From contig NC_045138.2 of the NCBI RefSeq assembly GCF_008831285.2, positions 4,712,001 through 4,776,000 of the forward strand: a stretch of 64,000 bases of DNA. Reading direction: 5' to 3'. This DNA comes from Nymphaea colorata (Eukaryota). This document shows, piece after piece, positions 320 through 39,812 of this stretch. The notes below the pieces were generated by a model. The model saw only the letters and a program-made list of their open reading frames with translations, made no database searches and was not told the origin of the DNA. Both the position numbers and the translations under genes were made by a program. Positions within the stretch are counted from its first letter, which is position 1. Each line of letters opens with the position of its first letter.

Positions 320-3300
320 TTAGCTATATATGTGTAATCTTTTCCCAAGATGGTCGATTAACTCCTGCGGCAGATGGAGTGCAGGACATCTGAGAATTGT
401 CAACGATTGAAGGTTGGAGACGCAGGCGATCTGTTGTTGCTGTGCATCAGAGGGACATGTTGTTCCATTTTGTTGTTGTTGGGCAGTAATAGTATTATTC
501 ACCTCCACCACAGACTTCAGATTGGGGAAGTACCAAAGCGCTAGGTATCTCAGTTTGGGGAGGCATTGCCAGTGGCCTCCCAAGCTGATGTCCTCGGAGA
601 AAGAGTGTAGGTACAATACCTCCAGTTGAGAGAGACCCCACACCCACTCAGGCACCCTTCCCCATTTGAGCCCATCAACATTTGTGTTGTCTCTCAAATC
701 CAGATGTTTAAGGGAGTATAGAAATGCCGATACTTGTGATGGCAATGGCGATGGCACTAGTACTGTTGATTCTGAATCCAATTCTAAGTAAATGAGGTTA
801 GGCAGTTGCTCCAGCAATTTCCATCCCAATCTTGCACTTGGGCAATTCCTCACTGTCAGCCTTTGGAGCCCTGCCAACTCATCACTCAAGCCTTCCATCT
901 GCATCTTTGGACAATTTTTAAATATCCCCTTTCTTAAGCATGGCATAGAAGTAAATGTTGTTTCCCAGTTGGGCAAATTAGTCACCTCCAATTCCTCAAG
1001 TGAAGGAAGGCGAGTAGGGAGCTGCTTCAAAATGTTCAGGTCAGACAACTTCAACGTCTTTAAAGCTGGCATGTGATCATCAGCTACTTGCTCTACCCTC
1101 CCACATCCCTTCACCTCCAACGACTCCAATGCTGGCAAGTCACCTATCGTGTTGAGCCCATCACACCACTTAATGTCCAAGGACTTCAGCAAAGGAATGC
1201 TTGGCAATGCACCCAATGTTGGGCATTCTCTGACCTCCAATTTTTCCAATGATTTAATTCCTATGACTGTTGCCCATGATGGGCAACTTAGCAGCGACAG
1301 TGTCCGCAGCTTCTTATAATTGGTATCCAAATACCACACAGGCCCATCTCCTTTATAACCACAAATTGCCAACCTCTCTATGCCATGCGGAGGCTCCAAA
1401 GCCTCCAGCAAACCCCTCTCTTCAAAAGCACTACCCACTCTTTCATCCTCTTGCTCCTCAAAATAAATTTCCGCTTTCTCAAATTTTGGGAACTCTAAGT
1501 CCAATTCCAAAGCCCCTACCAATCTCCTGTGTTCAGTAAGGCTACCGAAGACCAATTCCACACCATTTAGCTCATGCCTTTCCTTAAGATGTACCTCCTT
1601 TGCATCCATCACTTTCACCCTTCCCCCCTGCAAACCTCCAATTGACAATTCCCCCTTTAGTTTGTTCAAGTCTTTTAGTTCATTAATATTGCAACCTCTT
1701 GTCTTCCCTTTGTCATCGCATACCATAAACCTATGCAATGTCCGTAAATTAGTAAGCTTCCCCAGGCCTTCAGCTACAAATCTCAATGACCTTGTCCCTT
1801 TCAGGCCAAGATACCTCAAGTTGCACAGTTCACCCATTTCCTTCGGCAATTCTTCAATTCTACTTTGACTTAAATCTAATGTTTGCAAGTTATAGAGTCT
1901 ACCGATTGAACTGGGCAACCATCTCACGTCAGAATAGCTTAGATCAAAATATTTTAGCAGTGAAAGGTCTTCAATGGACTTTGGCAGCTTATCTCTGCTA
2001 TATTCCCTCAATGACAACACCCTCAACCACTTGAAATTGGTGGTTAAGCGTTTAATATAAACCAAATGCCAGTTTGACTTGGAACCAAAATTGGAATCGA
2101 CCAACAATGTGTGCAGCTTATTTGCTGCTCCCGAGGCATTAAGTTTGTGCACTTCTGCATCATCTACACCAAGTAATGATAGATGGCGGGTGTGCTTAGT
2201 AGTGGAGACATGGCTATATTCCTTTCCACCTATATATAAGGCAAGGTCATGCAAAATGTCATGCAATTTGATATTCTTGTATTCAGTTTCTTCAATCATG
2301 AACCGGTTTGTCAGATCATTAATCCATTGGTTAGCAGTCACTTCCACATCAATGCCTTTCTTTTGGCCAATTAATCCATGCGCCATCCATTGCATGACCA
2401 ATCTATGTCTTTTTATCTCATAATCCTTTGGATAAATGCAACAATATACAAAGCAACTCTTCAAATAATGCGGCAAGTCATCGTAGCTCAGCATGAGACC
2501 AGGAAAAATGCTTCCACATATTTCAGAGGATGATGATGAGGCAGGCATCTTCCATTCCCAGATCTCACTCTTCTCAACGCTTTCCCAGTCATCCTTCGTC
2601 ATCCTTTTTGTACGCATTAAGGATCCCACCGTCTGGACAACAAGTGGAAACCCACCACACTTCTCCACTATTTTCACCCCTATAATTTTCAAGTTGTGAC
2701 TCTCCAATTCATGTTCTTGTTTCAATGCCACATGCAGAAACAAGCTCCAACTTTCGTCGAAAGACATTTTTGGCAATTTATGCATTTTAGCACCAATCCC
2801 TTGGGAGACTTCTACTTTTCTACTGGTGATCAAAATCTTGCTCTCTTTTGCACCTCCCAACAGGATGCCCTCTACCTCTCCTTCCCACCAACCCAATTCC
2901 CATACATCATCTAAGACCAATAAGAACTTGCTCATTGACAGCTCACTCTGTAATCGTGTGCACAAATCACTGAAGGAAGTGACACCCTTAAGGGTTTCTC
3001 CTTCAAATTCCTTGCATACCTCAATTAGTATCTTTTGCAGCAAACCCGTACGATTTGGATTCTCTGAAACACAAACCCACCACCTGCGTTTTCCAAATTG
3101 TTTTTCAACTTCATTAAAAACCATTTTTGCAAGAGTTGTTTTCCCAATCCCGCCCTGACCTACAATGGATACAATAGAAACACCATCTTTTCCTGGCACA
3201 CTACTCTCTGTAAAGCCTTGAAACAAGAGTTCTTTTACTTTCTCTTTATCATCCACCCTTCCCATGGGAGGCTGTGCAGTACTTGTGAGATGGGTTGTCT

Positions 3301-3817
3301 CTCGAGGATTGTCATGTTCACCACCAACAGGATCCTCACTCTTAACTTTTGGTGTTGTGTTGAGCAAATCCATCATTTCCTTACGTTGTTCTATTTTATC
3401 AAGCTTTTGGTTGATATTTTTAATATCATTTGCAAGTTTGTAGGAAGCAGATACATGTTCCTTGAAGCAAGAACACATAGTGGTCCAGGGCTTGCTTACC
3501 TTGTTCCATGAAGTTATAGGATGCTTGTCACTTTTGCAAAGTGCAATTGTGGTTTGGTATCTTTCGATTATGTCCTGGGCATCATACAAAACGTCCTTCA
3601 GCTCTGCCTCTAGATCTCTGTTGCGCTCGTTGCTGAAAAATGGCTTTCGCTCCACGACTTTGATGGTCTTTTGCAAGCGTTCCAGCTTCTCCTGGAGCTT
3701 CTCGAGTTCGAATTTGGCATTCCGGATGAGGTCCACCTTGTCTTTCAACAAACTCGTTACAGACTGGAACAGATTAGAAACAGCTGCTTCTGCAAGTGCA
3801 TCGATTACTATTGCCAT
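320..3817 (-). CDS. CC-NB-ARC-LRR (CNL) disease-resistance protein, intronless, about 1165 aa
   Basis: Open frame from ATG 3817 (MAIVIDALAEAAVSNLF; the ORF track start at 3871 is a TTG). Rx-type CC with EDVID-like DAQDIIERY, P-loop GQGGIGKTT, kinase-2 LLVLDDVW, RNBS-B SKILITSR, GLPL variant CGGFPL, RNBS-D CFVYCCIYPKDY, MHD variant KLHDILHDLA, then many LxxLxL repeats. Confidence 0.96.
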   Translation of the reverse strand: MAIVIDALAEAAVSNLFQSVTSLLKDKVDLIRNAKFELEKLQEKLERLQKTIKVVERKPFFSNERNRDLEAELKDVLYDAQDIIERYQTTIALCKSDKHPITSWNKVSKPWTTMCSCFKEHVSASYKLANDIKNINQKLDKIEQRKEMMDLLNTTPKVKSEDPVGGEHDNPRETTHLTSTAQPPMGRVDDKEKVKELLFQGFTESSVPGKDGVSIVSIVGQGGIGKTTLAKMVFNEVEKQFGKRRWWVCVSENPNRTGLLQKILIEVCKEFEGETLKGVTSFSDLCTRLQSELSMSKFLLVLDDVWELGWWEGEVEGILLGGAKESKILITSRKVEVSQGIGAKMHKLPKMSFDESWSLFLHVALKQEHELESHNLKIIGVKIVEKCGGFPLVVQTVGSLMRTKRMTKDDWESVEKSEIWEWKMPASSSSSEICGSIFPGLMLSYDDLPHYLKSCFVYCCIYPKDYEIKRHRLVMQWMAHGLIGQKKGIDVEVTANQWINDLTNRFMIEETEYKNIKLHDILHDLALYIGGKEYSHVSTTKHTRHLSLLGVDDAEVHKLNASGAANKLHTLLVDSNFGSKSNWHLVYIKRLTTNFKWLRVLSLREYSRDKLPKSIEDLSLLKYFDLSYSDVRWLPSSIGRLYNLQTLDLSQSRIEELPKEMGELCNLRYLGLKGTRSLRFVAEGLGKLTNLRTLHRFMVCDDKGKTRGCNINELKDLNKLKGELSIGGLQGGRVKVMDAKEVHLKERHELNGVELVFGSLTEHRRLVGALELDLEFPKFEKAEIYFEEQEDERVGSAFEERGLLEALEPPHGIERLAICGYKGDGPVWYLDTNYKKLRTLSLLSCPSWATVIGIKSLEKLEVRECPTLGALPSIPLLKSLDIKWCDGLNTIGDLPALESLEVKGCGRVEQVADDHMPALKTLKLSDLNILKQLPTRLPSLEELEVTNLPNWETTFTSMPCLRKGIFKNCPKMQMEGLSDELAGLQRLTVRNCPSARLGWKLLEQLPNLIYLELDSESTVLVPSPLPSQVSAFLYSLKHLDLRDNTNVDGLKWGRVPEWVWGLSQLEVLYLHSFSEDISLGGHWQCLPKLRYLALWYFPNLKSVVEVNNTITAQQQQNGTTCPSDAQQQQIACVSNLQSLTILRCPALHLPQELIDHLGKRLHIYS

Positions 3818-5719
3818 CTTCTCCGGTTTCTCAGTAGGTGGAAGAGGAAGAGGAAGAGGATAAATTTTCAAGTGGAGGGGAAGAAAGGCAAAGAACTAAA
3901 GATAAGGAGCAAGTGGCTGACAATTACCATTGACTTGAAGGCTTTGGCCCTCCCCTAATAAAAATCTAGCTGAGGGACTGGGTAACTTTAATTTGCTCCA
4001 CCACCACCACATGATCGTCTTGCCAGTAGATGCAACAGCTCTTCCCCTGCCTTCAATTTACAAAACATGACAGCAAGTGGTTTTAACGTTAAAAGACATC
4101 CAGCCCTTGGGTTCCACGCTCTTTGGCCAATTTCGTACTGACTCTTTCTCTCATCAGTAGGGTGACCTGTTTTTTCTCTTTAGTTTGGTGAAACATGTTT
4201 ATAATACTGGAGCACATCACAAAAATACTCAACTATACATTTTTTTTTATCTAGTTGCACTAAAGAAGAAATTAAATTTGTTAATTTATTTGCTGCTAAA
4301 TAAATCTGGTGGGAAGATCCCCAACCCAAGCCTTCTACATCTCTTAGAGTTCCCCATTTCAGGTTCATAAGATTTGTTAGTCTTTTGTTTCTCTGATTTT
4401 ATCATGTAAAAATAATTTGATATATACAATCCTGAAACCAAATGTATTTCCATATTGGGTAAGACCATACTGTAGCTACAAACAATTCAATGGAGAACAA
4501 GACGATAAACAACAGGCTGGCAAGGAGAGGAAGAAGATAAACAAAGTTAGGTCCGCCACTGCAATTGGAATTAGTGGAGAGTACATAACCAGCCCATGTG
4601 CCCTACAGGCTGGCAAGATCCATGAATTGTCGGATTTCTTATTGTATTATGTAAAAGGTTTGGATGCATGATTTTTTTTTTTCAAAATTCAAAACTTTAT
4701 TTAGCCCATCCAAGTTTCGTGATCTGACCATTGACTAGAACTACAAAGATGATGATGTCCCCATGATGACCATTACAGAGTGTTTCATGTTTAGGATCAG
4801 GAAGGTTTCTCTAACAATAGCAACAGAGCATGATCAAGTGGCACCAGCTACCCAAGGTTGGCTCAGACCAATTACATAGCCAGGGCTGGGTGTTGTTACT
4901 AGTCTTTTCAGCTATTTCTTTTCAAGTGGGCTTTCTTGATTTCATGCAAAGGGGGCTGCAGTTGAGGGTTTAGAACAAGTGATGCAAGAAGCAAAATCCA
5001 ACAATAACCCCCAAAAACGATGATTTGGGCTCACTGTTCAAGCAGGTATTTACAGCACTTCATTTTTGTACACAGATGTATGTATGAGAGAAGAACAGAA
5101 AAAATCAGAGGCCACTTTCTCCGGCAAGCCATCAGAAAGCTCCAAGCGGAGTAAGGTAGTTGGTCGGACTGACAGGCCAATGAAACTTCGGTATTAGTTT
5201 AATTATTATGGAGTGCTACTGCTGGGGACTGCAAAAGATGGATGCATGACACTTTAGTTGACATATACACCGCTCTTCAAGGTATTTGAATAAACTAGAG
5301 CAAAAAGAACAGATATGCAATGAATTAAATTCAAACCAACCACCAGTAAAGAACACGCAGTGTGAGAGCAATAGACCAAGGGTGTTTTTATAAACTAAGT
5401 AAAAAAGAAGCAGTTGTGAAATGAAAATCCATAGTATCCACCAGTCAAAATGACAAAGTGACTAGAACGCCATTTTCTTTATGATAGACCAATGGTATTC
5501 TAAAGCAAAAAAAGACAGTTATGAAATGAATTTAATTTTTAGTGTACCTGATTTCATTGCGTAAAAACAAGTCGGATATATGACATTGATTCCTAATTTA
5601 TTTCGATCTTGGGTGTACTTTAGTGTTAAATTTAAACTTGGGTGCAAAAATACATATTGAATCCAATAGCCACATTCAAACTTTGTGATCATCCAAAGAT
5701 TGGCATAATGTCATGCATT

Positions 5720-16037: not shown

Positions 16038-16590
16038 CCCAAAACACTAAGTTGGTAAATTCTGTTGGCTTGTTATTCTCCCTCATGACATATGTAAAAA
16101 AATGACAATGCATCCTCCACAAAGCCAAGCCTTGCAAAACTTGAAATGATGGAATTAAAAATAGCTATATCTCTGAGGCATTTCCTCAAAGAATTGAATA
16201 GAATCCTCCAATCTATTGAATTTGACAAACATGTCAATAATCGAGCTACATACAACAGATTTGGAGAGAAAACCTGTCTTTATGCAGACCCCAAAAATCT
16301 CATTTCCCGCTGTTGTATCTAGTAAATTTGCACATGCAACAACCATGGTAGAAATACTAAAGTGGTCATGGATGAACCCAATGGCTCCCATCCTCTGATA
16401 ATGGGTTAACGCTTGCTCAGGTTTTCCTGATCTAACACAGGCATACATAATGGCATTCCAGGACACTACATCCCATTTTTCCATACCATAAAACAAATGA
16501 AATGCATAGCTGACATTACTAAACCTACCATACATACAAATAAGGGCATTGTTAAGTATAAGATTATCATGGAGACAGTTCCTCAAAATG
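16038..16590 (-). pseudogene. Truncated, frameshifted copy of the PPR gene at 37519-39812
   Basis: Near-identical to 38384-38938 (ILRNCLHDNLILNNALICMYGRF...FEEMPQR). Has a 2-bp deletion (ctatatctctgagg vs ctatatctctttgagg), lacks the 5' end beyond 16590, and has lost about 970 bp of 3' CDS/UTR. Confidence 0.93.
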
Positions 16591-18611
16591 AGCGAGGCAG
16601 GCAGGAGATGCTTTTCTCTCATGCCTTTCTTCGTTCATGGCTGATTCACGCAGGTCCAAACCTGCGCTGGCTCATTTTTCCTTTACTAGATCGCGGCTCT
16701 TTGGGGGGAGTGTACATCTGTTTGAAACATTTCCGACTCTTATGTTAAATGAGTCCAGTTCGAGATTAAATGATTACTCAAGTTTGGCAATGAGTCGAGT
16801 TCGAGTCGGATGAACTCGACTCGATTAAACTTTTTTAACACTAATACTTATTTATGTAATTTCAAAAACATAAAATGGCTTAAATAAAAATGTGAAAATT
16901 TTAAGCATAAAATATATATTAAGAAACACGAGCTTAAACAAGTTGAGCTCAATCTTGAATTCAGTTAAGCAAGCCACACTCAAGTCGAGCTGTATATGAG
17001 TCGAGTCGAGTTTGAGCAGGTCCAGCTCGAGCTCGGCTTGCTTGTTGTGGGTTGGCAATCAATTTGAGATTTGGTTAATCGGGTTTCACACGCTTTTGTA
17101 GGCCAATGGGCTAGTTGCTGATTCGAGTGGCATGGGTGTCAGCACCACAGGAAATGGGCCAATGGTTGGTTGCTGGTTCGAATGGCTCGGGTGACAAGCT
17201 CGGTGGAAGAGCAATGTATTATCACACTTGCAGCACAGGTTCTAATGCAGGCACCAACTTAGCCAAGCGATCGAAAAGAGAAATTTAATTAATCAGGTGT
17301 TGCTAAAAGAAGACGAAGAAGCGTTGTAGCTGAGAACTTTACACCCCTAATTTCCTTGGTGGTCCTATGGATATAAAGGGCTTCCTAGTGCACCGTCAGG
17401 TGGTAGTTTGTTGTTTTATTTTAAAAAAATAAAACAACAAATAACGAAAATAAAAAAATGGAAACAATCAGTTTGTTATTACAAAAAAATGTCACAAAAC
17501 ATGAAATACCGGTGGGCGAAAATTTGTGTACCAGTATCACAGTATGCCACATATAACCATGTTTGCAAGGCTTGCAATTGTAGCACCAAAGACTGGGTTG
17601 AAATGATTTTGTTGTTTCCTATATTTAATGACTGGATTATTTGCCTATAACTATGACCGCTAAATATAAGGATAGAAATGAAGGTCCAAACAAAGCCTAA
17701 GATAGCTAATCAAATAGAGTGGTTAAGGTCTCAAGGGTGGTGCCACCCAATGGGTTTTTTGGCCTTCTCTTTTTCACCATGTTTGAATGGATGGAAACTT
17801 AAGGAAATGATTAATGGATGGAAGGGACAAGAAAGAAAAATCAATTGAAACAAAATTGGTAGGGAAAGAAAAGAAAAGGAGAAGAAAAAGAAAAATATTA
17901 TTGTAAAAGCTTGTTTGGATATAAAAGAAAGGAAAAGAAATCATTTAAATTAATTTACAAGAATGCTCTTAACACTTGAACTTATTATCTAAGTAAAAAT
18001 ATTTGATTACATGACCTGATTCAACAGTGGTACATGTTTATTTCTTAAAAGAAGAAAATATTGTACTTAACTTAATTTTTTATTTAATAGAAAATAATCA
18101 AATTAAATATTTTTTATGGTACTTAGCTAGAAATTCATGGGTTCTTTCTTATGCTTAATTTTTTAACATTATTTTAAATTTGAAAAAAATAATTTTTAGA
18201 GATCGATAGCTTTAAATGTGGAAAAAAATATATTCATGTTTTTCTATATCCTTATCATTGAGCAGGACCTAATTTTTCTGTAAGGCCCCATTTGATGCAC
18301 ATGAAAAATCCTGTGCATCCGGTGAAAAATGTACGATGAGGGGAAATTTACCTTGTGAGTGGTGTGTGCATCAACCACCACAAAACTTCACCAGGCAAAA
18401 TGTGTACGACGAGGGTAAAATTGACCCGCAAAAAAGTCCGACCTCAAAGCTCAGACTTTTTGCCTCGTTTTCTTCCTCTTTCCCCTCCATCGCCTTTTCC
18501 CCTCTCCTCTCTTGGTCTCTCGTTCCTCTCCACTCTCGTCTCCTCTCTCGCTCTCTCTTTCCTCTCCTCTCTCGCTCTCTCCTTCCACTCCTCCCTTGCT
18601 CTCTCGTGTCT

Positions 18612-24812: not shown

Positions 24813-26229
24813 CAGAAATAATTCAGGGATGCACAAGGAAGCTGCTTTTTGAACTGACATTAGCGGATACTAAATAAAAAAAACCATTGGCTCGACACTG
24901 CTGTGGAGAAATTTGTGTTCAACGAACATTCTGTCTAACTTTGCAATAGCATGTTTACAAAAAGATCTTTAGATGCCTGGCATATTCCATAGGATCTTGG
25001 CGATCATTGATTTTGAGTTTAAGGACTGATAACCTCGTATTGTATTAATGGCAACCGCTCCACTCATCTTTAATTAAATATGCTTCTTTTTTAAAACCAG
25101 AAAGACTGAACCTCCTACTGTATTAGTGGCGATCACTCCACTCATCTTTAATTTTGCTTGCCCCACATAACAAGACATGTATGTTAATATTCACGAGTCA
25201 ACAGTCTCGCTCAGCCATTTGATTTACCTCATACCTTTCCATTACTAGGGATGTACACGAGCCGAGTCAAGCTCACTCGAACTCGACTCATATCTTGTTT
25301 ATCCATCGGCTCTATCCCTATCAGCTCTGTTTACTCGAACTCGACTCATATCTTGTTCATCCATCGGCTCTTTCCCTGTCAGATCTGTTTTCTTCCAATT
25401 GTAATCATCAATCAACACAAACTCAGGAGATTGGAGTAAAAATCAATTGCAACCAGGAAAAAGAACATCAAATCCGATTGCAATCACCAAAGCCATTGAT
25501 AGGAGTAAAGAAATACAGAAACAGAAATTTATGAAAGAAATGCAAAAAATTATTCCAAAAAATTCCAGATTTTTAAGTAAATTAAGGTTGTTTAGGTTGA
25601 AAGATAATTGAGACACCATAAAAAGAATCTTTAAGAAAGCGCTTTTCAGATAAAAATGCAGTTACATATCAAGTACTTAACCTACTGAGCGTTAAAAGTA
25701 CATTTTAAAACTTAAGCAATCTTAACATTGAGTAGCTTTTTTTTAATTTCTTCGAAAGGAAAAATGCCTAGATACAACTTGTCATGAAGCTACTAAATAG
25801 ATATTGCATAAGAAATAAGAATGAAAATGTCAAATAGCAATTAAATGATGATACCATAATCAATGTGGCTATCTGTGTTGTGCTTTAGTTTTGGAGGCCA
25901 GAAAATTACTTGGAAAAAATCAAGTGAAAGTAAACACCCTGGTGTGTCCCGGTATCCATGTTGCCATCTTGATACACCAATAAGGCATGGAGACAAATTT
26001 GGTGCAGGTGAAAATGACCAGCTAGGAGCCAAACCAAAAAAAAAAAAAGAATCGCACTGCAAAAAACATGAGATTTATTAACGGCCAGAAAATGTCAATA
26101 AAAGTTACAAAACCGTCAGTATAAGTATTATCAACTGTGCATGCAATCTGTTACTGTAGATGGTATCGTTGAAGCATTCACTGGCAGATATGTCAACCGT
26201 TGGTACATGTCCACTTCTCCTGTCAATAA

Positions 26230-26254
26230 GGGCCCGTTTGATGGGCGGGTGAAA
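26230..26254 (+). repeat. Left TIR of the Harbinger element
   Basis: gggcccgtttgatgggcgggtgaaa, preceded by TAA. Confidence 0.95.
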
Positions 26255-26469
26255 GTGGGCGGGGGAGGAAAAATTTGTACGGGCGGGTGAAATTTCACCC
26301 GCCCGGTTGAGTAGCCATCAAACGGGGTGGAATTCCACCCGTTTAACCGAAGAGGGAGCGGGTGGAATTCCACCCGCTCGAAAGTCCAAGCTCGGAATAT
26401 ACCCATCATGCTATTCTGCTGCAGCGCTCGAAGTCCCTCCGCAACGCTCGACCTCCCTCCGCAACTCCT

Positions 26470-26567
26470 CCTCCCTCGTGCCTTCTCACTGCCAGGTCTC
26501 ATCGTCGACCGTCGCAAGACCCTCAAGCGGCCGGCGTCGGAGGTTTTTCTGCCGGTATATCTCTCTG

Positions 26568-26615
<48 letters not shown>

Positions 26616-26921
26616 CGTCGCTAGCTGCCCACATTTCCCCCCTTTCTTCCGCACATTTCCCCCCTTTCTCTGTGCTGGGTAGCACCCTCAAATGCCCCCA
26701 TTTTTTCCCCCCTCAAACGCCCCCATTTTTTTCCTCCCTCGTGCCTTCTCACTGCCAGGGTTTCACCGTCGACTGTCGCAACACCCTCAAGCGGCCGGCG
26801 TCGGACATTTTTCTGCCGGTATATCTCTCTGTCGCTCTCTCTCTCTCTCTCTCCCCGTCGCTAGCTGCCCACATTTCCCCCTTTCTTCCGCACATTTCCC
26901 CCCTTTCTCTGTGCTGGGTAG
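26470..26921 (+). repeat. Direct duplication (about 200 bp; 26470-26682 and 26733-26921) in the GC-rich 5' region of the Harbinger
   Basis: Both copies run cctccctcgtgccttctcactgccagg...ccctcaagcggccggcgtcgga...(CT)n...tgtgctgggtag. Confidence 0.9.
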
Positions 26922-28632
26922 TTCCCTCAGACGCCATAATCTTCACTCCTCCATTTCCGCTTTTTGTATCTTTGATTTATGTGGTTCTTTTGTTTTTTTT
27001 TATTTAATTTCATGTTTTGTTTCTCTTGTTGGGTGTTCACATTTCTTATCGTTCTTATTTGCGGCAGTCTGTGTAAACGAGCAGCTAAGTAATAGAAGCA
27101 TTGTAGTTATCCTTATCGTTCTTGAACGATGAGCTAATGCTATATGTTATGTTTCACATCTTCCTGGGTGTTTTTGTTTCTTTAAGTTACTTTTTATGGT
27201 TATTTGCGAAACAAAACCTTGTTTCTTTCGAGGGAATTTTATCTTGCTAAAGCAGATGATCGCCTACAGATTCCCCTGTAGGAGTTATATGAATTGAGCT
27301 CCATGTATTGAAAACAAGCTTTTGGTGGAGGCATAGAAATGGTTGCCTTAACCTTATCTCGTTATCAGTATCGCCGTTCTTTTCTCTGAGTTTCATTATG
27401 TTATCCCTTAGGGCATTTGGGCCCTTAGATAGAAACGGGGCTTAGATTTCAGCGACGCAAGTTGCCTGTACAGGGACCTATCTGACAATAAGAGAAGAAT
27501 CTATTTTTCTCATTTGCCTGTACAGGGACCTGTCTTGCCTTCTCAAGTTCTTTTGTGAAAGACCAACAGTAAGAGTACCACAGTGCCTTATAACTTAAAA
27601 CCTGCAAAAAAGAACAGGGCCTAGCTCTCTGTATCTACGGGAGAGTGAATTTCTTTCGAATTAGTTCCTAGTAGAACTGTTGTATCCTTTTCCATTTTTA
27701 TTCTCTTTCCTTTACCAATTGTCATTGTCTTGGCCAAGTGTATGATAGAAGGGAACATGAATGTCTAAGGGTGCTTTTAACTTTTAAGTAGTGCATAACA
27801 ATCACCGTGTAGATTCTTCCTGTTTCTAGGATGTTGGTTTTCTTCAACTTATATCGGAGGCTTGCAGAAGCAAAATGGGCTGCATGAGATGGAGAAAGAT
27901 GCCTGAATTAATAGGCAGTTTGTTCATAAATAACGTTGTTCACGCCTCCGGTGTCTAATTGTTCTATTCTCAGTTATTGTTCTCTTATATGTTTTTCACA
28001 AAAGAAAAACATGTAATGATCTTTTCTATGGATGAAACATAATATATAGCATTAGCTCATCGTTCTCACAAAAACATTTATATTTCACTTTGTCTTTACA
28101 ACAAATAGAGCCATTGTTTGGAGCTTGTAGTGGTTAATCTTTTTCTTTTTGTATTTGACACAGATTCTCTCTATTGCAAGAATCAAGTTTTAACTTTTAT
28201 TGGATTTAGAGTGCGGTTTTCACTTGATTCCTATTGCAAAAATAGTTGCTATTCTTTTTGCATAAAGCTTGCATCAAATTTTGGCAACATTGCTAGGGAA
28301 CGACAAATTAAAATCCCAAATATTCAGTTTATTGCTGACATCTTTTGTACTTATCATGTGTTATTAGTTTGCTTTGGTTCTTGGAAACCCATTTTTTGCA
28401 CATATGGATTGTAAGATCATAATTGCGTAATTAGCATAGCTTGAGATGAATTTCCTTTCTTTTCTGTGTATGAAAGGTCTACTTATGCTTTTAATTGGCA
28501 ATGGTGGAAACTTTATGTCATGCTTTTTCTTTTGGTTTTTGATGCTCCTTTGTCGTTGTTTCTCGTACAACTGTTCTTCATGCTAGATTTATATTATTGT
28601 TACTGTGAAGAATTATTATACAAAACGTTAAC

Positions 28633-29854
28633 ATGGAAGACAGCGGTCCTTCAAGAGAAAATCTTACGTGGACTGAACCACAAATGGATTACTTAGTCCA
28701 GCTTCTTGTGGAGCAGTCACGCATCCTTGGCATGAAATCTGGTGGAGGTTTGAAGCCCAAAGCATACACAGCTATTGAAAAAGCAATGATGGATAGATTC
28801 GGTCCAGAATTCACGAAAGACAAAATAAAAAACAAATTGAAGCATTCCAAACCCAACTTGACAGTGATGAAGGAAATGTTGAACACAAGTGGGTTTGGCT
28901 ACGACCCAATTAACAAATGCATTGAGGTCGACCCCCAAGTATGGAACGACTACATTGAGGTAAATTATAAAATTAATATTGTTAGGTTTTGTCTCACATG
29001 TATTTGCTTCTGCAATATTTGAACACATGAATTTTTTCAGAAATATCCGAATAGGAAAAAGTACAGAGGTCCAAAAGTTTGGAGATACTATGATGAGTTC
29101 GCCGAGGTATATGGCGAATCTCATGCAATTGGGCAAAACGCAGTCACATTAAACAACGTGCTTGAAGTTGAGACTGAACCACTCCCATGTACACCTGCAT
29201 CTCAGACATCACCTTCGTACATGCAGCCTGATAGTGAACAGTCATTTACACAGTCGCCACTACCTACAACTCCTACAACTGATTTGAACACATGAATTTT
29301 TTCAGAAATATCTAAATAGGAAAAAGTACAGAGGTCCAAAAGTCTGGAGATACTATGATGAGTTCGCCGAAGTATATGGCGAATCTCATGCAACTTGGCA
29401 AAACGCAGTCACATTAAACAACGTGCTTGAAGCTGAGACTGAACCACTCTCATGTACACCTGCATCTCAGACATCACCTTCGTACATGCAGCCTGATAGT
29501 GAACAGTCATTTACACAGTCGCCACTACCTACAACTCCTACAACTGAGAATCCGACAACCAATACAAGTACACGTAGGTCAAAACGGAACAAGTCAACCA
29601 ATGATGACATGTATTACAATTTGTTGAACGGTATAGCTAAAAATGTGGACTCCCTCACACATACTTCTAGAGGGTTTCAATATGTCAAATATTGTGAAAT
29701 TTTACAAGAGATGGTGGACACAGGGCTACTAGATAGTCATACGAGACTGATGAGTCTAGACCTGTTAGGAGAGGGAACCAATTCCATGATCTTTCTCAAC
29801 GTTCCACCTGAAGACTGGCTGACATGGTTGTCGCGTAGACTTGGTGATTTGTAG
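28633..29854 (+). CDS. Harbinger Myb/SANT-like DNA-binding protein; exon 1 28633-28959, exon 2 29306-29854 (291 aa); alternative acceptor at 29041 gives a 193-aa truncation
   Basis: MEDSGPSRENLTWTEPQMDYLVQLLVEQ...GGLKPKAY...IKNKLK...SGFGYDPINKCIEVDPQVWNDYIE|gtaaat; after tttcag| the frame continues KY.NRKKYRGPKVWRYYDEFAEVYGES, typical of plant Harbinger Myb/SANT proteins. Confidence 0.88.
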
Positions 29855-30095
29855 GTAAGATTCCATGTCTGTTAGTTTAATTATTTGTATGTTTCATTTG
29901 GCACAATAACATTTGTTGTGTGTTTTTCTTTTTATTCCATGAACATCCATGTAGTGAGAAATTGTTGCAATGTATTTGCAGTTTAGTCGAAATGATTGAT
30001 TTCGTTATTCAAGTACCTTACATGTATATGCAGTTTAGTCGAAATAATTGATTTTGTTATTCAAGTACCTTACATGTATATGCAGTTTAGTCGAA

Positions 30096-31494
30096 ATGAT
30101 TGATTTTGACATGTTCGATGACGACGATGAACGAGTGCTTTTCATCATTCGAATGGTTTTTGTCTTCATTTTCTTTTGGTTGAAAGACCAACCATCATCT
30201 AGGAGGATTGTTCATCCATTTCGAGATGCTGGTACATCTTTTGTCCAACTAATGCTTCGCGGTCATCCTAAAAATTGTTTGGACTTACTCCGTATGGAAG
30301 GACATACATATATGAGACTGTGTAACATTCTAAGGAATAGAAATTTGTTGGAGGATGCTCGTGACATTACTGTAGAAGAACAAGTAGCTATATTGCTTTT
30401 GACAATTGGACATAATGAACGGAATCGTGCTGTTCAAAATACGTTTCAACATTCCGGACAAACAATAAGTAAATATGTCAGCCTAGTGCTACGAGCGATA
30501 TGTATACTGGGTAAGGATTACGTTCGTCGGCCCAATGATGAGATGATACCAGCACATATTCGACATTCTAAACGATTCTTTCCATATTTTGAGGTGATTT
30601 CATCATCTTGAACTCAACATGACATATACAACATGACAAACTACAACATGACTAACTAGTTGTCTTGTCATATAGAATTGTTTAGGAGCAATCGATGGCA
30701 CACATATACCGGCTTGGGTCCCTTTTTCAGATCAAGCAAGGTTTCGTAATAGAAAAGGTTTCGTTTCTCAAAACGTCATGGCTGTAGTCGGCCTTGATAC
30801 TAGATTCCACTACGTTTTGGCTGGATGAGAAGGAAGTGCAACAGACTCAGGAGTATTGTACAATGCACTAGATCATGAAACAGACCCATTTGTTGTCCCA
30901 GAAGGTACGTAGTTCCACCAACCAGTTCAGTCTTTTATTAAGAAGCATGTATCAATGTATAAATACATTGTGTTCAATTGTAGGCAAATTTTACCAAACA
31001 TTGTTGGTTTGCTTATACCTTATCGAGGACATCGTTATCATATGTCTGAGTTTAACACTCGGGGAGCACGTTCACCTAGAACAGAAGAAGAATTATTCAA
31101 CCATAGGCATTCATCACTCCGAAATACAGTAGAAAGAACTTTCGGCATGTTGAAAGGTCGTTTTCCAATATTGAAAATGCAAGTTCAGTATCCTTTCCAA
31201 AAACAAGCTCAAATTGTTCTTGCTACATGTGTACTGCACAACTTCATAATTGAACACAATCCAAATGCCGAGCAATTTGATGATGAAGATGCACCTTCGA
31301 TTGATAATTTCGTCTTAAGCGAACCTGAAATTGCAAGCCAAACACATCAGCGAGGAAGCAACAATGCTTTGAGAGCAGCTATATCATCTCAAATGTTTAC
31401 AGATTATCAATTGAATAGTAAGTTTGTTTATAAATGTTGACTACTTCTTCAGTTTGATTGTCTGACATTTGTTTTCTTTTCAACAGGACAATGA
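30096..31494 (+). pseudogene. Harbinger DDE (HARBI1/DDE_Tnp_4-like) transposase, disabled; exons 30096-30593, 30676-30904, 30984-31417, 31487-31494
   Basis: Motifs LRME..YMRLC, VEEQVAILL.TIGHNERNR...FQHSGQTISK, CLGAIDGTHI, RNRKG..SQNVM, YVLAG*EGSA (TGA 30826-30828 replaces W), GKFY joined out of frame to PNIVGLLIPYRG (DxGY motif missing), FNHRHSSLRNTVERTFGMLKGRFPIL, ATCVLHNF. Confidence 0.92.
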
Positions 31495-31823
31495 AGATGA
31501 TGCTCCGCCAAAAGTACTATGTGGTTTTCGAAGGACGTGAGCGAGGCATATATGACAGCTGGGAGCGGTGCCAACCATTAGTCTATCGGTACAAGGGTGC
31601 CATCTTCAGATCGTTTGATTCATTACAAGTAGCAGAAAATCACATGCATAAGTATCTCCAGAACAAGTATGGTGTGCAAGTACGCAGGTCTCCACTCATT
31701 GAAGATGTCATCGCAAAGCAAGTTATAGAAGACACGCAGTTTGAAGAACGAAAGTGCAGCCAGAAATGTTGGATTACTTGTTTTGTGATTACATGTTTTC
31801 TTTGTTGGATATGTACTCATTGA
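31491..31823 (+). CDS. Harbinger ORF3: 110-aa protein with an RNase H1 N-terminal hybrid-binding (Cauli_VI-type) domain and a hydrophobic Cys-rich C-terminal tail
   Basis: KYYVVFEGRERGIYDSWERCQPLVYRYKGAIFRSFDSLQVAE fits the consensus YY.V..GR..GIY.SW..C...V..Y.GA.(F/Y)KSF.....A. No RNase H catalytic domain follows; tail CWITCFVITCFLCWICTH. ORF is intact and inside the TIRs. Confidence 0.82.
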   Translation: MKMMLRQKYYVVFEGRERGIYDSWERCQPLVYRYKGAIFRSFDSLQVAENHMHKYLQNKYGVQVRRSPLIEDVIAKQVIEDTQFEERKCSQKCWITCFVITCFLCWICTH

Positions 31824-32551
31824 ACTTTGTTTTTTCTTCTTAGTAGAAAGTACACCCTTTTGTGGATTCGTACTCATGTTACTTTTGTGGACAATTTTTG
31901 TTTAATGTTTTTGGGAACAAATATATAACTTTTGCAGTTGTAGATTAAGTTAAGAAGGTGTTTTCTGTTGTAATGTGTTGCTAGATATTTCTTTTTGCTT
32001 TTTGTTATATATATCGTGTGAATAGTCGTGTCTTTTAATGAACTGGCTGTATGGTGATTTGTTTTGGGATGATTGATGAAGAAATATATGGGTTCTGCAG
32101 TCCATTTTTTGTTTATTGGTTTTGGCTTGGTGGTGGTTCCATGAGATGATGATCTTTCTCGTTTGGTGGTGTGCTTGGGTAATCTGTACATATAAGAATC
32201 GGTGATGAGGTGATGATCTTTCTCGTTAGATGTTTCGGCTTCGAAACACAAGCTTTTGTGGCATTTATTTGAGTGGTGATCTTTTGTTGTTTTGTAAGTT
32301 AGCATTCCTACTCCTTTCAAAGTGCAATTGGGGAGGAAAAAAAAAACAACATTTTCCAGGTTAAATTTTCCCTGTGCATCAAACAGGGTTAAATTTACCA
32401 CGTTAAATTCTTCATGTTCATCAAACTGGGTTAAATTTACCACGTTAAATTTCACCCGACAATCAAACAGGGCCTCGTTTTAGAAGAGGGTAAAATTTCA
32501 TCCACTAAATTTTTCTAGAAAAATTTACCTTGGTAAACTTACCGCATTAAA

Positions 32552-32576
32552 TTTCACCCGCCCATCAAACGGGCCC
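32552..32576 (-). repeat. Right TIR of the Harbinger element
   Basis: tttcacccgcccatcaaacgggccc followed by TAA; exact reverse complement of the left TIR. Confidence 0.95.
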
Positions 32577-32701
32577 TAAATTCCGAACCTTTACTGGCAA
32601 TACCAAACTATCAGCTAAATTAACTCCATAACTTTTACTGAGGGTTTGCCACATTAGTAAATAACTGATCTTTACTGACTCGTTTTGGAAGAGGGTAAGA
32701 T

Positions 32702-35467: not shown

Positions 35468-38400
35468 GTTTTTAAACTTATATTTTTCTTGAACCAAAAT
35501 CTTTAGATTTCAAGAAGGCCAAGATCAATGTGCAACACCCATGATACTTATCATTGGGACCATACTTAGATGGCCTACAACCTCAAAACTTGTCAAAAAC
35601 TTTTTTTTTTTTTCAGATTTATGTTGTTAGGAATGGCATACTTTCTTTTCAACTATATAAAATTCTTTAACTTCTCATTTAACATGCATATTCACTATGT
35701 ACTTATAGGATTCACGAACGTCACAACTACTTCTCTAAAAACCCAAGCAAAACACTAAATAACGTGGTAACTGAATTAGGGGCGGGGCAAAATCTTGAGA
35801 TTAACTTGAGTTTCAAAAGAAGACACTAGCTATTAACTTTCGTTACTTGAGAAACGATCATTTCATTAAAGTGTTTTGATAAAATTTTAAGATCTTCTTT
35901 CAAAATTTGACTCCGTTTTTCCTTTTTAAATGCTTATTCCAAATCAAAATGATTCTTAATTAAGATCACTTCTTCTAAAATATCTTTCCAACCAGTTGAT
36001 CAAAAAAGATTATAGAACTCTTTTTCCCAAGGACTTAGATAACACTTGCTTATTTTTAAGGATTGGCTGTTTCATCATTTACTCGATTTATAAAACGTTA
36101 AATTTCTAAAAGACTTTAAACTTCTTAGCATGCACCGCAGCATATTTAAGTTGGGGATAACGCTTAATTGAACTTGAAAATACACTAAGAATGAACATAG
36201 CCTTTGACCTTGCTACCCCCGGTCCCTACAAGAATGATAACATATACTAAGTTACAGACAGCCTATTTGTAATTAGTCACCGTTTCTTTCTCTCACGCAT
36301 GCAGAGAGTTGCATTAGACAATGAACCTTCTTTAGTGCAAAACTAGCATTCGTTAGAGAAGCTTACAGAAGCCAACTTTTAACATCACAGCACCTTCCCT
36401 CCTTTTATTATCACGAAAAGAAAGTTGATTCAATGGGTCTGCACCCTCCACTATTCATCAGAGAAATATGGTACTCGTGAAACACTTTATATAAACTATA
36501 AGGATTTACATATATGTGCTTTCTGCTTTCAAGCTCGGCTGCTGTATCATAACATCTATTTTTAGGTCCAAGTGCCCAAGTTTAAGAGAGAACTTGGATC
36601 TTACTTAACTGAGAGTGAGTTTACACAAGATAGTAGTCAGAATGCAAACGGGTTGGAGTTGCAGCCAAAGTTTGGCAATATGTCCCTGTATCAACATGGA
36701 ATTAGCAGGGCTTTTATTTTTATAGATACTTATTCGCTTTCAAGTCAACTAGGACTCTGCTCACAATTAAGCAAAATGCTTGGTTAGTTAATCCTTGTGA
36801 TTATGCATATTTTTCCACATGAACGTCCTTTACTGCAACAAAAATAAAAAAAGGCTTGACATCAACAACAAAAAGTTAACAGTAAAGTAAGATTGCTGCT
36901 ATGTATTATCTACCATAAGCACCTTTTCGACCATGAGTTGCTTGTTTTGAATCTTTTGTTAGTGATGGACAAAAATCTAGTACAAAAATCAAGGTTTCAG
37001 ATAAACCAGGTTCAGTGTAGGTTCAAAAACATTGTTTTTTTATTTCACGCTTTTGATACCAACAAAGTAAAACAAAGAACACAAGAAAAAAGTCCTGCTT
37101 CTTTGGAAATGAGGGGCCAGGAAATGCTTGGAGTTGAAAAGAAAAGAGAACAGAAAAAAAATTATAACTTCCCAGTCACCCATCAGCTGCTGAGCTGGAA
37201 GAGGCCAACCCACATGGTGGGTCAAGCCAATTATCTTAAAAAAACAAAGAAACGCACATAATACCCAAAGACCGACCAAGCCAGTCAAGTGGGCATGAAT
37301 CATGGTCCAAAAAAATAGATGACCGACTTGTTGGTGACTATGTCAACTAGGTTGGCTTGTTACTAAGTTGGTAAAAAGGATTCAACTAACCATATATTTA
37401 GCATTTCATTTAGCATTCTTAAGAAGTTTTTCTATAAATATTGCATATCTAACACCAACTTGGGCCACTTGCAAGATAATTGATAACAAATTATTCAACC
37501 TACCGCAAGTGCAGTACGTTACTCCACACTTAGATCACCCAAGATTGCATAATCCACTGAAAGATAGTCCATCTCCTGTATATCCCACCATAACAACCTC
37601 AAGGTGTTGTATACAGCCTCCCCCCCTGGATGCACCATGTTATCTTCCCTAAAGACAGCTAACTTGTTCCTCATAATGATCCAACTGCAGCCAACCGCTT
37701 CTTTCAAACATCTCACCTTCATCATTCTTCTCAAACGAACCACACTTTCCCAGTGGCATTTCATTGCATATACTTGAGCCAATACAACATAGGGCAAAGA
37801 TTCCCGCGGCTCCAATGCAACCAAACTTTCTGCAACCTGTTGTGTGATTCCTATATCAGCATGTAGTCTGCAAGCTCGGAGAAGTAGCCCCCATATTAGA
37901 GCACTTGGCTCATATGGCATAGATTTGATAACTTCCATGGCCTGCTTTAGCCTTCCTGCTCTACTTAACATGTCCACCATGCAAGTGTAATGTTCAATAT
38001 CTGGCATAACACCATGCTCCACCTCCATGCATGAAAACAGTTGGCTTCCTTCATTAACTAGACCACCATTACTACAAGCCAAAAGAACAGCAAAGAAGGT
38101 GATTTTGTCAGGTAGTACGTTTTTTGAACACATTTCCTTCAGTAGCTGCAAAGCCATGCTTGCTTCACCATTTCGAGAACATCCCATAATCATGGTGTTC
38201 CATGAGACCAAGTCCCTAGAATGCATATTAGCAAAAACTTTCATAGCACAATCAATGTTTCCTGTCTTGGCATACATGTCCATTAAAGAGTTGGAGACTA
38301 CAAAATCTGCTTCAAAGCCAACTTTCAGTGCCAAAGAGTGCAACTGCCTACCTTGCTCAATGGAGACGATACATGCAGCACAACCCAAAACACTACCAAA

Positions 38401-38938
38401 AGTAAATTCTGTTGGCTTGTTATTCTCCCTCATGGCATATGTAAAAAATGACAATGCATCCTCTACAAAGCCAAGCCTTGCAACACTTGAAATGATGGAA
38501 TTAAAAATAGCTATATCTCTTTGAGGCATTTCCTCAAATAATTGAATAGAATCCTCCAATCTATTGAATTTGGCAAACATGTCAATAATCGAGCTACATA
38601 CAACAGAATTGGAGAGAAAACCTGTCTTTATGCAGACCCCAAAAATCTCATTTCCCGCTATTGTATCTAGTAAATTTGCACATGCAACAACCATGGTAGA
38701 AATAGTAAATTGGTCATGAATGAACCCAATGGCTCTCATCCTCTGATAAAGGGTCAACGCTTGCTCAGGTTTTCCTGATCTAACACAGGCATACATAATG
38801 GCATTCCAGGACACTACATCCCATTTTTCCATACCATAAAACAAATGAAATGCATAGCTGACATTACTAAACCTACCATACATACAAATAAGGGCATTGT
38901 TAAGTATAAGATTATCGTGGAGACAGTTCCTCAAAATG
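32702..38938 (+). repeat. Segmental duplication, copy B (paralogue at 4800-16590)
   Basis: Same matching blocks as copy A. Lacks the equivalent of about 10150-14000 and overlaps the intact PPR gene. Confidence 0.9.
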
Positions 38939-39812
38939 TTAGCATGAACCTGCTTACCATGCCAGATATTTGAAACCCCCACTGAAATGATGATTGAGAA
39001 TGTGAACCCTGTTGGTCTAATTCTTCTTTCCCACATCTCCGTAATCAATGTTAAGGCAGCTCCATGTTCTCCCTGCATAAAAAACCCAGAAAGTAACGAA
39101 TTCCAGCTGACAACATCCTGTTGAGGCATTTCACCAAACACTTTCTGGGCACTCTCAACTTCACCATTTCGAACCAACCCACCTAACAAAATGTTCCAAG
39201 AAAATATATTCCATTTAGGTGTGTCATTAATTGCTTTGAATCCATCATCAGACTCACCAAGACTGTAGTACAAAGACGAAATCTGATTGCCAAAAAAGGT
39301 TGCAGTACTGAGACCCAACCTAATCAACCTTGAGTGAACTGATTGTGCAAAAGCTAGACAATTACTGGAGATAGATTGGTTGAGGAGACTGACACAATTT
39401 TGAATAATGTCTTCCCTGTCAATAGGAAAGCAAAAACCATGAGTGATTTGACATGAAGGACAGAAGGGTAGTCATAAAACTTAAAGTTGGCAGGTAGAAT
39501 AGATTATCGAGGATCAGAAATAACTATGCACAACGGAGGATTTAATATGCATAAATAAATCTACCAGAAGTATATAACCATCTGTGACAATGTAGACATA
39601 TACAAACCACGCATATAACATGTATTGGATATAATTTCGTAAAATGCAACAGATATAACCTATAGCAAACAAATAATTCACCACATGAATAAAACGTGTA
39701 ACAAGCAATAAATATGTCACCTGTAGTGCCAGAACGAACCTGTAGTAGATGATTCTTTTTGTTGCAGCTTTTGTCTCTTTGATGGGAAAAAGATACAAAC
39801 TTCCATTGACAT
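37519..39812 (-). CDS. PLS-class PPR protein, E/E+ subgroup without DYW (resembles At1g43980-type); proposed exons 39812-39721 and 39415-37519, about 662 aa
   Basis: Long ORF of P/L/S motifs (DVVSWN repeats, PDIEHYTCMVDMLSRAG), E domain ending EAVGCSWI, short E+ tail. The ORF lacks its own ATG; acceptor attgacag| at 39416 joins in frame to an upstream ATG exon (MSMEVCIF...FWHYR|gtgac). The upstream exon is inferred. Confidence 0.9.

What the first reader, a model, noticed from the sequence alone, without database searches (positions are those of the whole stretch)
31491..31823. Harbinger transposon with a third ORF: stand-alone RNase H1 hybrid-binding / caulimovirus TAV-like domain plus a hydrophobic tail
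Seen: inside the perfect TIRs, after and co-oriented with the transposase, is an intact 110-aa ORF with the RNase H1 N-terminal motif, no catalytic RNase H domain and a C-terminal CWITCFVITCFLCWIC stretch. Established: canonical PIF/Harbinger elements encode only a Myb/SANT protein and a DDE transposase. This domain (Pfam Cauli_VI) binds dsRNA and RNA:DNA hybrids and is shared by RNase H1 and caulimovirus P6/TAV, which promotes reinitiation on polycistronic RNA and suppresses silencing. Inference: ORF3 may be a dedicated accessory gene of a three-gene Harbinger lineage, acting as an anti-silencing dsRNA binder, an R-loop targeting factor or a reinitiation helper, possibly membrane-anchored. 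I know of no description of this cargo, but novelty is unverified.
Basis: partly seen in the sequence, partly recalled or inferred. Interest (0 to 1): 0.9.

Follow-up and report, generated by a model that had tools for sequence, protein, structure and literature searches.

The report
Plant transposons' overlooked third gene
A water-lily-type jumping gene of a family thought to need only two proteins carries a third, spliced gene, and related elements in other plant-like DNA carry it at the same position; it encodes a small domain predicted to grip double-stranded RNA or RNA-DNA hybrids, with a likely membrane anchor, and it likely helps the element dodge RNA silencing.

Summary
Confirmed and widened. 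ORF3 (31491-31823) is an RNase H1 hybrid-binding domain (Pfam Cauli_VI, E 1.4e-16; model fits human HBD at 0.8 Å), a variable linker and a hydrophobic C-tail. It lies inside a PIF/Harbinger element (25-nt TIRs, TAA duplication) after Myb and transposase; this copy's transposase is broken. RNA reads of relatives splice into an acceptor 4 nt before the ATG from behind the Myb stop and from the transposase end, always out of frame: a shared last exon with its own start. It is no one-off capture. Many Nymphaea copies exist. In plant-like metagenome contigs (likely grasses) 9 of 37 related loci show Harbinger Myb or transposase upstream on the same strand, one with the full Myb>TPase>ORF3 order. 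ORF3 sits 700-900 bp inside the TIR, 33 of 38 copies keep the acceptor 2-4 nt before the ATG, and dN/dS is 0.45 (0.28-0.68). One derivative shows a leader-to-ORF3 splice. Function is untested; best guess is a tail-anchored dsRNA binder that dampens silencing. A single origin is not shown. Ten literature searches found no description. New variant of a known kind; interest 0.72.

The parts
26227..26229 (.). left target-site duplication TAA
26230..26254 (+). left terminal inverted repeat, 25 nt, PIF/Tourist type
26255..26960 (+). GC-rich 5' region, partly duplicated (about 263-bp spacing), with candidate leader donors near 26554 and 26819; inferred leader exon, not shown by reads
   Evidence: poorly covered
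28633..29854 (+). Myb/SANT gene (ORF1). Intron 28960-29040; 265-bp tandem duplication 29017-29546. Stop TAG at 29852-29854 is followed directly by a used GT donor
30096..31417 (+). DDE_Tnp_4 transposase. Exons 30096-30593, 30676-30904 and about 30984-31417. Broken in this copy (TGA at 30826-30828; lesion at the start of exon 3)
31418..31486 (+). 69-nt GT-AG intron joining the transposase end to the ORF3 exon; its acceptor is also used by donors at 29854 and 30904
   Evidence: 6, 6 and 3 reads; 6 and 6 reads
31491..31823 (+). ORF3, 110 aa: hybrid-binding domain (aa 8-50), low-confidence linker, hydrophobic Cys-rich tail (about aa 93-109). After splicing, its ATG overlaps the transposase stop (ATGA)
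32348..32551 (.). subterminal repeats, including an 85% inner TIR-like copy at 32450-32475
32552..32576 (-). right terminal inverted repeat, 25 nt
32577..32579 (.). right target-site duplication TAA

Best explanation
ORF3 is a conserved, spliced third gene of plant PIF/Harbinger elements laid out Myb > transposase > ORF3; it encodes an RNase H1-type hybrid-binding domain with a predicted C-terminal membrane anchor, and it likely binds the element's double-stranded RNA at an internal membrane and so would blunt post-transcriptional silencing. Shown: location inside the TIRs, the fold, many copies, purifying selection, the same order in distant plant-like DNA, and use of the exon as the common 3' end of Myb and transposase RNAs, out of frame with both. 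Inferred: each gene has its own acceptor just before its ATG, so one 5' leader would feed three mRNAs by acceptor choice. ORF3 protein would be made from a leader-to-ORF3 RNA, seen in one grass-like derivative but not in Nymphaea-type reads. In the Myb and transposase RNAs the exon would serve as the 3' end, with the stop codons placed where exon-junction-triggered decay is avoided. Inferred and untested: tail anchoring with the domain facing the cytosol, duplex binding, and silencing suppression. My odds are about 0.85 for a selected third gene and about 0.4 for the anti-silencing role; the confidence given is for the whole statement.
For: Domain and fold: Pfam E 1.4e-16; yeast 1QHK E 2.5e-7; AlphaFold domain pLDDT about 95; 3BSU rmsd 0.8 Å, TMt 0.88. 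W24 aligns with human W43 and is invariant in 27 of 27 aligned sequences. F39-R40 align with F58-K59; PMC6846478 (passages seen) names W43, K59 and K60 as the binding surface. Family: 6 near-length Nymphaea proteins and 11 N. thermarum models with ORF3 fused to neighbours, 5 or more of them to Myb or transposase pieces. Between subfamilies the domain is 74% identical, the linker 21% and the tail 72% (P0006). Outside Nymphaea: 9 of 37 related loci have Harbinger Myb or TPase upstream on the same strand, 8 of the 14 with at least 900 bp upstream; L053 has the full order. Element ends with PIF-type TIRs lie 720-900 bp after the ORF3 motif in L028, L077, L002, L064 and L044. A YAG acceptor lies 2-4 nt before the ATG in 33 of 38 copies, against 198 of 2020 other ATGs; offsets of 2, 3 and 4 mean the frame is not kept, so the ATG is a true start. 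dN/dS is 0.45 on 27 codons outside the search motif (bootstrap 0.28-0.68; shifted frames 0.82 and 1.56). Splices 29854>31487, 30904>31487 and 31417>31487. L060 is the spliced form of L057, with an ATG-free leader joined to ORF3. AG lies directly before the transposase ATG in 3 of 3 loci inspected and before the Myb ATG in L053. Precedent for counter-silencing cargo: VANDAL, HarbingerS SET, and TET/JBP in PHISTA (PMC12730594, passages seen).
Against: No experiment or data on function, binding, localisation or translation. The second binding lysine (human K60) is serine in Nymphaea and some other copies. The Nymphaea tail is a marginal membrane helix (1.5 over 19 residues). Only 8 of 37 grass-like copies read through to a tail of KD 1.9 or more; the rest end early by stop, frameshift or contig end. 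The one spliced leader-ORF3 contig (L060) loses its tail by frameshift and has no Myb or transposase. No leader-to-ORF3 joint was listed in Nymphaea-type RNA, though the leader was barely covered. The reads come from relatives: only 6 of 455 were at least 99% alike. A 45-column tree did not join Nymphaea and grass-like ORF3 (2 changes in all bootstrap trees; one origin not excluded). Loci were chosen through ORF3, so the share of Harbingers that carry it is unknown. Nine other plant-like Cauli_VI loci showed no Harbinger link. Genomic context is unknown for the Rhododendron and Nicotiana proteins. The host species of the metagenome loci is not established. That plant siRNA pathways work on membranes, and that P6 suppresses silencing, is recalled and comes from no call.
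Confidence: 0.4

Rival explanations
1. ORF3 is a selected gene that acts on translation, like caulimovirus TAV. It would help ribosomes reinitiate or stay on the element's multi-ORF RNAs, and would itself be translated by stop-restart.
For: In Nymphaea-type RNA the ATG lies 4 nt after the Myb stop, and it overlaps the transposase stop as ATGA for both transposase donors. The fold matches many caulimovirus TAV models. That this domain of P6 binds ribosomal proteins is recalled.
Against: In grass-like elements the transposase stop is about 750-800 nt from the ORF3 start, with no tight donor seen in L008 or L053. A 39-read junction in run X22 has 3 letters where the window has 4, which would remove the ATGA overlap. 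A leader-first RNA exists. TAV needs other regions that ORF3 lacks (recalled). The top fold matches include a phage and a giant-virus entry, so there is no special closeness to TAV.
Confidence: 0.17
2. ORF3 is a selected gene that binds RNA:DNA hybrids from the inner nuclear membrane. It would guide the transpososome to R-loops or protect hybrids at the element.
For: The closest solved fold is the hybrid-bound human HBD; W43, F58 and the K59 equivalent are kept, and grass-like and Rhododendron copies mostly keep both lysines. Tail-anchored proteins can reach the inner nuclear membrane (recalled).
Against: Ping/Pong transpose with two proteins only (PMC2836001, passages seen). A membrane tail limits access to chromatin. 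K60 is lost in Nymphaea.
Confidence: 0.13
3. ORF3 is a selected gene with another role, for example sequestering the transposase or its RNA at a membrane (self-restraint), or serving the host as a decoy for viral dsRNA.
For: ORF3 is kept in derivatives that lost the transposase (L037, L051, L077) or both genes (L057, L060). Tobacco has a tandem-domain form with a tail, conserved in two species. Ping transposase carries an export signal that limits its activity (PMC2836001).
Against: No direct evidence. Retention near the 3' TIR is also what internal deletions would give by default.
Confidence: 0.15
4. ORF3 is passive cargo: a captured RNase H1 fragment carried in the 3' UTR, perhaps captured separately in several plant lineages.
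For: PIF elements do capture host gene fragments (PMC2528002, passages seen). Many copies are decayed. The tree does not show a single origin. Translation is not shown.
Against: dN/dS is below 1 in 1000 of 1000 bootstraps; divergence is highest at third codon positions (0.49 against 0.26 at second). The ATG, acceptor, position and tail are kept while the linker diverges. No close host RNase H1 appeared.
Confidence: 0.1
5. ORF3 is the last coding exon of a transposase or Myb fusion protein, as N. thermarum gene models suggest.
For: Models P0154, P0156, P0237, P0157 and P0155 join Myb or transposase pieces in frame to ORF3.
Against: All three listed GT-AG joints into 31487 are out of frame. The models need other donors (for P0154, one 4 nt downstream), which are not among the listed joints; 3 and 1 joints were not shown. 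Acceptor-to-ATG offsets vary 2, 3 and 4 between families.
Confidence: 0.05

Closest known systems
Canonical plant PIF/Harbinger elements (maize PIF, rice Ping/Pong, Medicago MtPH-M 'Master' with orf1 > TPase)
   Same: TAA/TTA duplication, short GGGC...GTTTG TIRs, Myb/SANT ORF1 plus DDE_Tnp_4 transposase; the orf1 > TPase order with two transposase introns resembles MtPH-M-2 (PMC2213677 table, passages seen; lineage not tested).
   Different: A third coding exon; and RNAs that splice Myb or transposase onto it, whereas PMC2836001 describes two genes that appear independent and not alternatively spliced.
Harbinger-group elements with extra genes: HarbingerS (SET, oomycetes) and PHISTA (TET/JBP, rust fungi); VANDAL MULEs with an anti-silencing protein
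   Same: A DNA transposon carries an accessory gene thought to counter host silencing (PMC12730594, passages seen).
   Different: Those act on chromatin or DNA marks. ORF3 is a non-catalytic duplex-binding fold with a membrane-type tail, in flowering plants.
RNase H1 hybrid-binding domain (human 3BSU, yeast 1QHK; Pfam PF01693)
   Same: Same fold (rmsd 0.8 Å) with W43, F58 and a basic residue at K59 kept.
   Different: No catalytic RNase H domain; C-terminal hydrophobic tail; K60 is serine in Nymphaea; carried by a transposon.
Caulimovirus P6/TAV
   Same: Shares the same small domain (fold matches, E 1e-4 to 1e-2, 19-35% identity).
   Different: P6 is about 420-540 aa with further regions; ORF3 is 100-140 aa with a tail; no evidence that it derives from P6.
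Pleurotus helitron captured gene capE (PF01693)
   Same: The same Pfam domain as cargo of a DNA transposon (PMC4289320, passages seen).
   Different: Reported in one long copy of a fungal helitron, not as a conserved lineage-wide gene.

Membership tests
PIF/Harbinger superfamily | 3-bp TAA/TTA target-site duplication | tested here: met
   TAA on both sides
PIF/Harbinger superfamily | short TIRs starting GG(G/C)CC | tested here: met
   25-nt perfect TIR starting GGGCCC; consensus from the PMC4423477 table
PIF/Harbinger superfamily | DDE_Tnp_4 transposase | tested here: met
   E 7.4e-14; broken in this copy; the matching C-terminal part is unbroken in homologue P0154
PIF/Harbinger superfamily | Myb/SANT ORF1 | tested here: met
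   PF12776, E 8e-16
PIF/Harbinger superfamily | transposition shown | not testable with these tools
   no genome or empty-site data held
PIF lineage M (Master) | transposase groups with MtMaster/DcMaster in a DDE tree | not tested
   reference sequences not available here; only gene order and intron number agree
RNase H1 hybrid-binding domain (PF01693) | Pfam gathering score and fold | tested here: met
   60.9 bits against 21; 3BSU match
RNase H1 hybrid-binding domain (PF01693) | binding residues W43, K59, K60 | tested here: inconclusive
   W kept, K59 is R, K60 is S in the window protein; both lysines are common in grass-like and Rhododendron copies
RNase H1 hybrid-binding domain (PF01693) | binds dsRNA or RNA:DNA hybrid | not testable with these tools
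   needs a binding assay
RNase H1 enzyme | catalytic RNase H domain | tested here: not met
   no PF00075 hit
Caulimovirus P6/TAV | long multi-region protein in a viral genome | tested here: not met
   110 aa; only about 50 residues align; lies in a DNA transposon
Tail-anchored membrane proteins | single hydrophobic helix within about 30 aa of the C-terminus, cytosolic N-terminal domain | tested here: inconclusive
   hydropathy 2.1-2.3 over 15-17 aa but 1.5 over 19; helix predicted; clearer tails in homologues; no dedicated predictor or localisation data
Pack-type transduplicated gene fragment | neutral decay and near identity to a host gene | tested here: not met
   dN/dS 0.45; no near-identical host RNase H1

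The most novel reading that the evidence does not exclude
An old, angiosperm-wide lineage of PIF/Harbinger transposons runs a three-gene, single-leader splicing programme and encodes its own virus-style suppressor of RNA silencing, a membrane-tethered dsRNA clamp. Many of the small 'RNase H1 N-terminal domain' genes annotated across plant genomes would be copies of this transposon gene.
Probability: 0.3. Interest if true: 0.9.

Novelty: new variant of a known kind. Interest (0 to 1): 0.72.

Why it matters
Plant PIF/Harbinger elements drive Tourist MITEs and are used as tools, and they are described as two-gene systems. A third gene kept under selection in water lilies and in grass-like DNA suggests that an accessory function has been missed. 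Known transposon counter-defences act on chromatin. A duplex-RNA binder with a membrane tail would be a different class, aimed at the RNA stage, and it is cheap to test. It would also explain a large set of orphan plant proteins mislabelled 'Ribonuclease H' (Atlas clusters of 86-124 members, mostly Streptophyta where the phylum is known), and the false transposase fusions in gene models.

Tried and rejected
No genome is held for the window, so copy number and empty sites were not measured. The look-up of sequencing runs listed no RNA holder on record; raw RNA runs of the same species label were laid instead. The second lay, meant to find a leader-to-ORF3 joint, had depth 0-6 over the leader in the two raw-read runs and gave no verdict. 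The idea that a Mutator element also carries ORF3 (L003) was rejected: the MULE ends in its own TIR about 160 bp before ORF3, and the sister locus L041 lacks it. A Myb link in Ilex model P0255 was not supported. The domain tree (56 rows, 45 columns) was too weak to settle origin; it held no plant RNase H1 or caulimovirus rows, and P0013, P0157 and P0042 were left out. Exact look-ups did not name the host of the metagenome loci: 3 of 10 found, none named. A viral-contig scan could not start because the alignment was too diverse. No complex was folded, as no binding partner is claimed. The two primary papers on the domain were not held. Earlier scan findings: none, by sequence or by words. Literature searches found no paper on this cargo. 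Repbase and TREP entries, subscription journals and supplements were not seen.

Full report
1. The observation. The ORF at 31491-31823 (+) is intact, 110 aa. Residues 8-50 match Pfam Cauli_VI (E 1.4e-16, 60.9 bits, cut-off 21), with no catalytic RNase H hit. It lies in a 6.3-kb element with perfect 25-nt TIRs (26230-26254, 32552-32576) and TAA on both sides, after a Myb/SANT gene (E 8e-16) and a DDE_Tnp_4 transposase (E 7e-14) on the same strand. This copy is not autonomous: the transposase has a TGA at 30826-30828 and lacks part of the start of exon 3, and the Myb gene holds a 265-bp tandem duplication. All close homologues are from Nymphaea, so the window is most likely water lily (inference).

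2. The protein. An AlphaFold model from 27 sequences gives a confident domain (pLDDT about 95), a low-confidence linker (46-52) and a C-terminal helix (76-83). It matches the human RNase H1 hybrid-binding domain at rmsd 0.8 Å, and yeast 1QHK by sequence at E 2.5e-7. It also matches caulimovirus TAV models, alongside phage and giant-virus entries. PMC6846478 (passages seen) names W43, K59 and K60 as the human binding surface. W is invariant in 27 of 27 aligned sequences, K59 is R here and K60 is S; grass-like and Rhododendron copies mostly keep both lysines. The tail is short: hydropathy 2.27 over 15 residues and 1.5 over 19. Against the diverged N. colorata copy P0006, identity is 74% in the domain, 21% in the linker and 72% in the tail; two other diverged models have only 28% in the tail. 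Proteins of 107-170 aa with this domain and a hydrophobic C-end occur in Rhododendron (14 near-length hits), Nicotiana and unnamed assemblies; their genomic context could not be seen.

3. Transcripts. Raw RNA reads of run X21 (6% of the run read; 455 laid, only 6 at least 99% alike, so they come from relatives) show three GT-AG joints into 31487: from 29854, the base that ends the Myb stop codon (6 reads); from transposase exon 2 at 30904 (3 reads); and from the transposase end at 31417 (6 reads) (two of them seen again). All are out of frame with ORF3. The Myb form puts the ATG 4 nt after the stop; both transposase forms end in a TGA that overlaps the ATG. Two one-sided libraries are heavy on ORF3: up to 982-fold in X22, which has a still higher peak over transposase exon 1, and 57-fold in X23 against under 3 upstream. 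This fits RNAs that end there. A 39-read joint in X22 has 3 letters where the window has 4, so the overlap is probably not universal. No leader-to-ORF3 joint was listed, but the leader was barely covered. In-frame fusions in N. thermarum models need donors not among the listed joints.

4. Beyond Nymphaea. A motif that was nearly plant-specific among my hits (34 of 257 proteins) was scanned in metagenome contigs and gave 95 loci. I set aside bacterial, fungal and other RNase H-like loci, and 9 plant-like loci with no Harbinger link (L009, L025, L034, L038, L010, L085, L022, L029, L031). That left 37 related loci, 31 of them tied by upstream DNA similarity. Nine have Harbinger Myb or transposase upstream on the same strand, 8 of the 14 with at least 900 bp upstream. 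L053 has Myb > transposase > ORF3, with a transposase intron at the same place as in the window. PIF-type TIR ends lie 720-900 bp past the motif in five loci, and similarity between sister loci stops there. A YAG acceptor lies 2-4 nt before the ATG in 33 of 38 copies (window included; 3 lack the ATG, 1 has a changed acceptor, 1 is spliced), against 198 of 2020 other ATGs; many copies are near-duplicates. The offset differs between families, which fits a true start codon rather than a fused exon. L060 is the spliced form of L057: an ATG-free leader joined to ORF3, in a derivative lacking Myb and transposase whose tail is frameshifted. AG also lies directly before the transposase ATG in L004, L006 and L053, and before the Myb ATG in L053.

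5. Selection and origin. Across 10 family representatives, on 27 codons outside the search motif, dN/dS is 0.45 (codon bootstrap 0.28-0.68, none of 1000 at or above 1); shifted frames give 0.82 and 1.56. Constraint is moderate, and includes decay after insertion: only 8 of 37 copies read through to a strong tail. A 45-column tree keeps the 9 grass-like sequences together (95/88) but does not join them to Nymphaea; one origin is neither shown nor excluded. The shared position, order, acceptor and tail favour one origin (inference).

6. How it likely works. Shown: a selected third ORF on a shared terminal exon. Inferred: one leader with three alternative acceptors yields Myb, transposase and ORF3 mRNAs. 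Inferred: the product is tail-anchored with the duplex-binding domain in the cytosol. Most likely role (about 0.4): binding element-derived dsRNA and slowing its entry into siRNA production; that such steps occur on membranes, and that P6 suppresses silencing, is recalled, not checked here. Rivals: a TAV-like translation helper (0.17), another selected role such as self-restraint (0.15), hybrid targeting from the nuclear envelope (0.13), passive cargo (0.10) and a fusion exon (0.05).

7. What is known. PMC2836001 (passages) describes PIF/Harbinger as two independent genes. PMC4482050, PMC2213677, PMC2528002, PMC6327408 and PMC4423477 (term-search passages only) mention no such third ORF; PMC2528002 reports host-fragment capture by PIF elements. 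PMC12730594 (passages) describes extra genes in fungal and oomycete Harbingers and in VANDAL. PMC4289320 (passages) reports PF01693 in one fungal helitron copy. Searches found no description of this cargo. Repbase reports, subscription journals and supplements were not seen and may hold one.

8. Verdict. A real, transcribed and conserved third gene of plant Harbinger elements: a new variant of a known kind. Confidence is high for the gene and moderate for the mechanism. Interest 0.72.

Noticed in passing
window 27124-28065: 33-nt, 97% inverted repeat pair 876 nt apart inside the element's 5' region; possibly a nested MITE-like insertion; almost no RNA coverage between the arms.
   Followed up: no
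window 29970-30125: Three 52-nt tandem repeats each carry a candidate acceptor just before the transposase ATG; relatives' contigs differ here.
   Followed up: partly
window 30108-30511: Run X22 shows a second strong one-sided peak (up to 1506-fold) over transposase exon 1, suggesting an internal 3' end or priming site.
   Followed up: no
window 37519-39471 (-), 61271-63397 (+), 16158-16634 (-): PPR-like host ORFs by eye; the 16-kb piece repeats part of the 37-39-kb gene.
   Followed up: no
window 323-3895 (-): 1191-codon open frame that looks like an NLR resistance gene by eye; not tested.
   Followed up: no
L003:628-4125: A Mutator-like element (MULE, SWIM domains) inserted just upstream of an ORF3 acceptor.
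   Followed up: yes
L037, L051, L077, L057/L060: Derivatives that lost the transposase, or both genes, but keep ORF3 with its acceptor.
   Followed up: partly
L009/L025/L034/L038 and L010/L085: Two further multi-copy plant-like Cauli_VI ORF families without a hydrophobic tail or Harbinger link; L034 has a weak B3 hit downstream.
   Followed up: partly
L072:3-2636: Long ORF with an organellar/viral DNA polymerase B hit that ends just before a Cauli_VI motif; a different mobile element may carry the domain.
   Followed up: no
protein P0250 and locus L012: A Rhododendron model fuses a reverse-transcriptase fragment to the ORF3-type protein; L012 looks by eye like a longer caulimovirid-type ORF.
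   Followed up: no
grass-like loci, 25-90 nt before the ORF3 acceptor: A CTGAGGC motif recurs before the acceptor and elsewhere in these elements; it may be a branch point or a protein-binding repeat.
   Followed up: no
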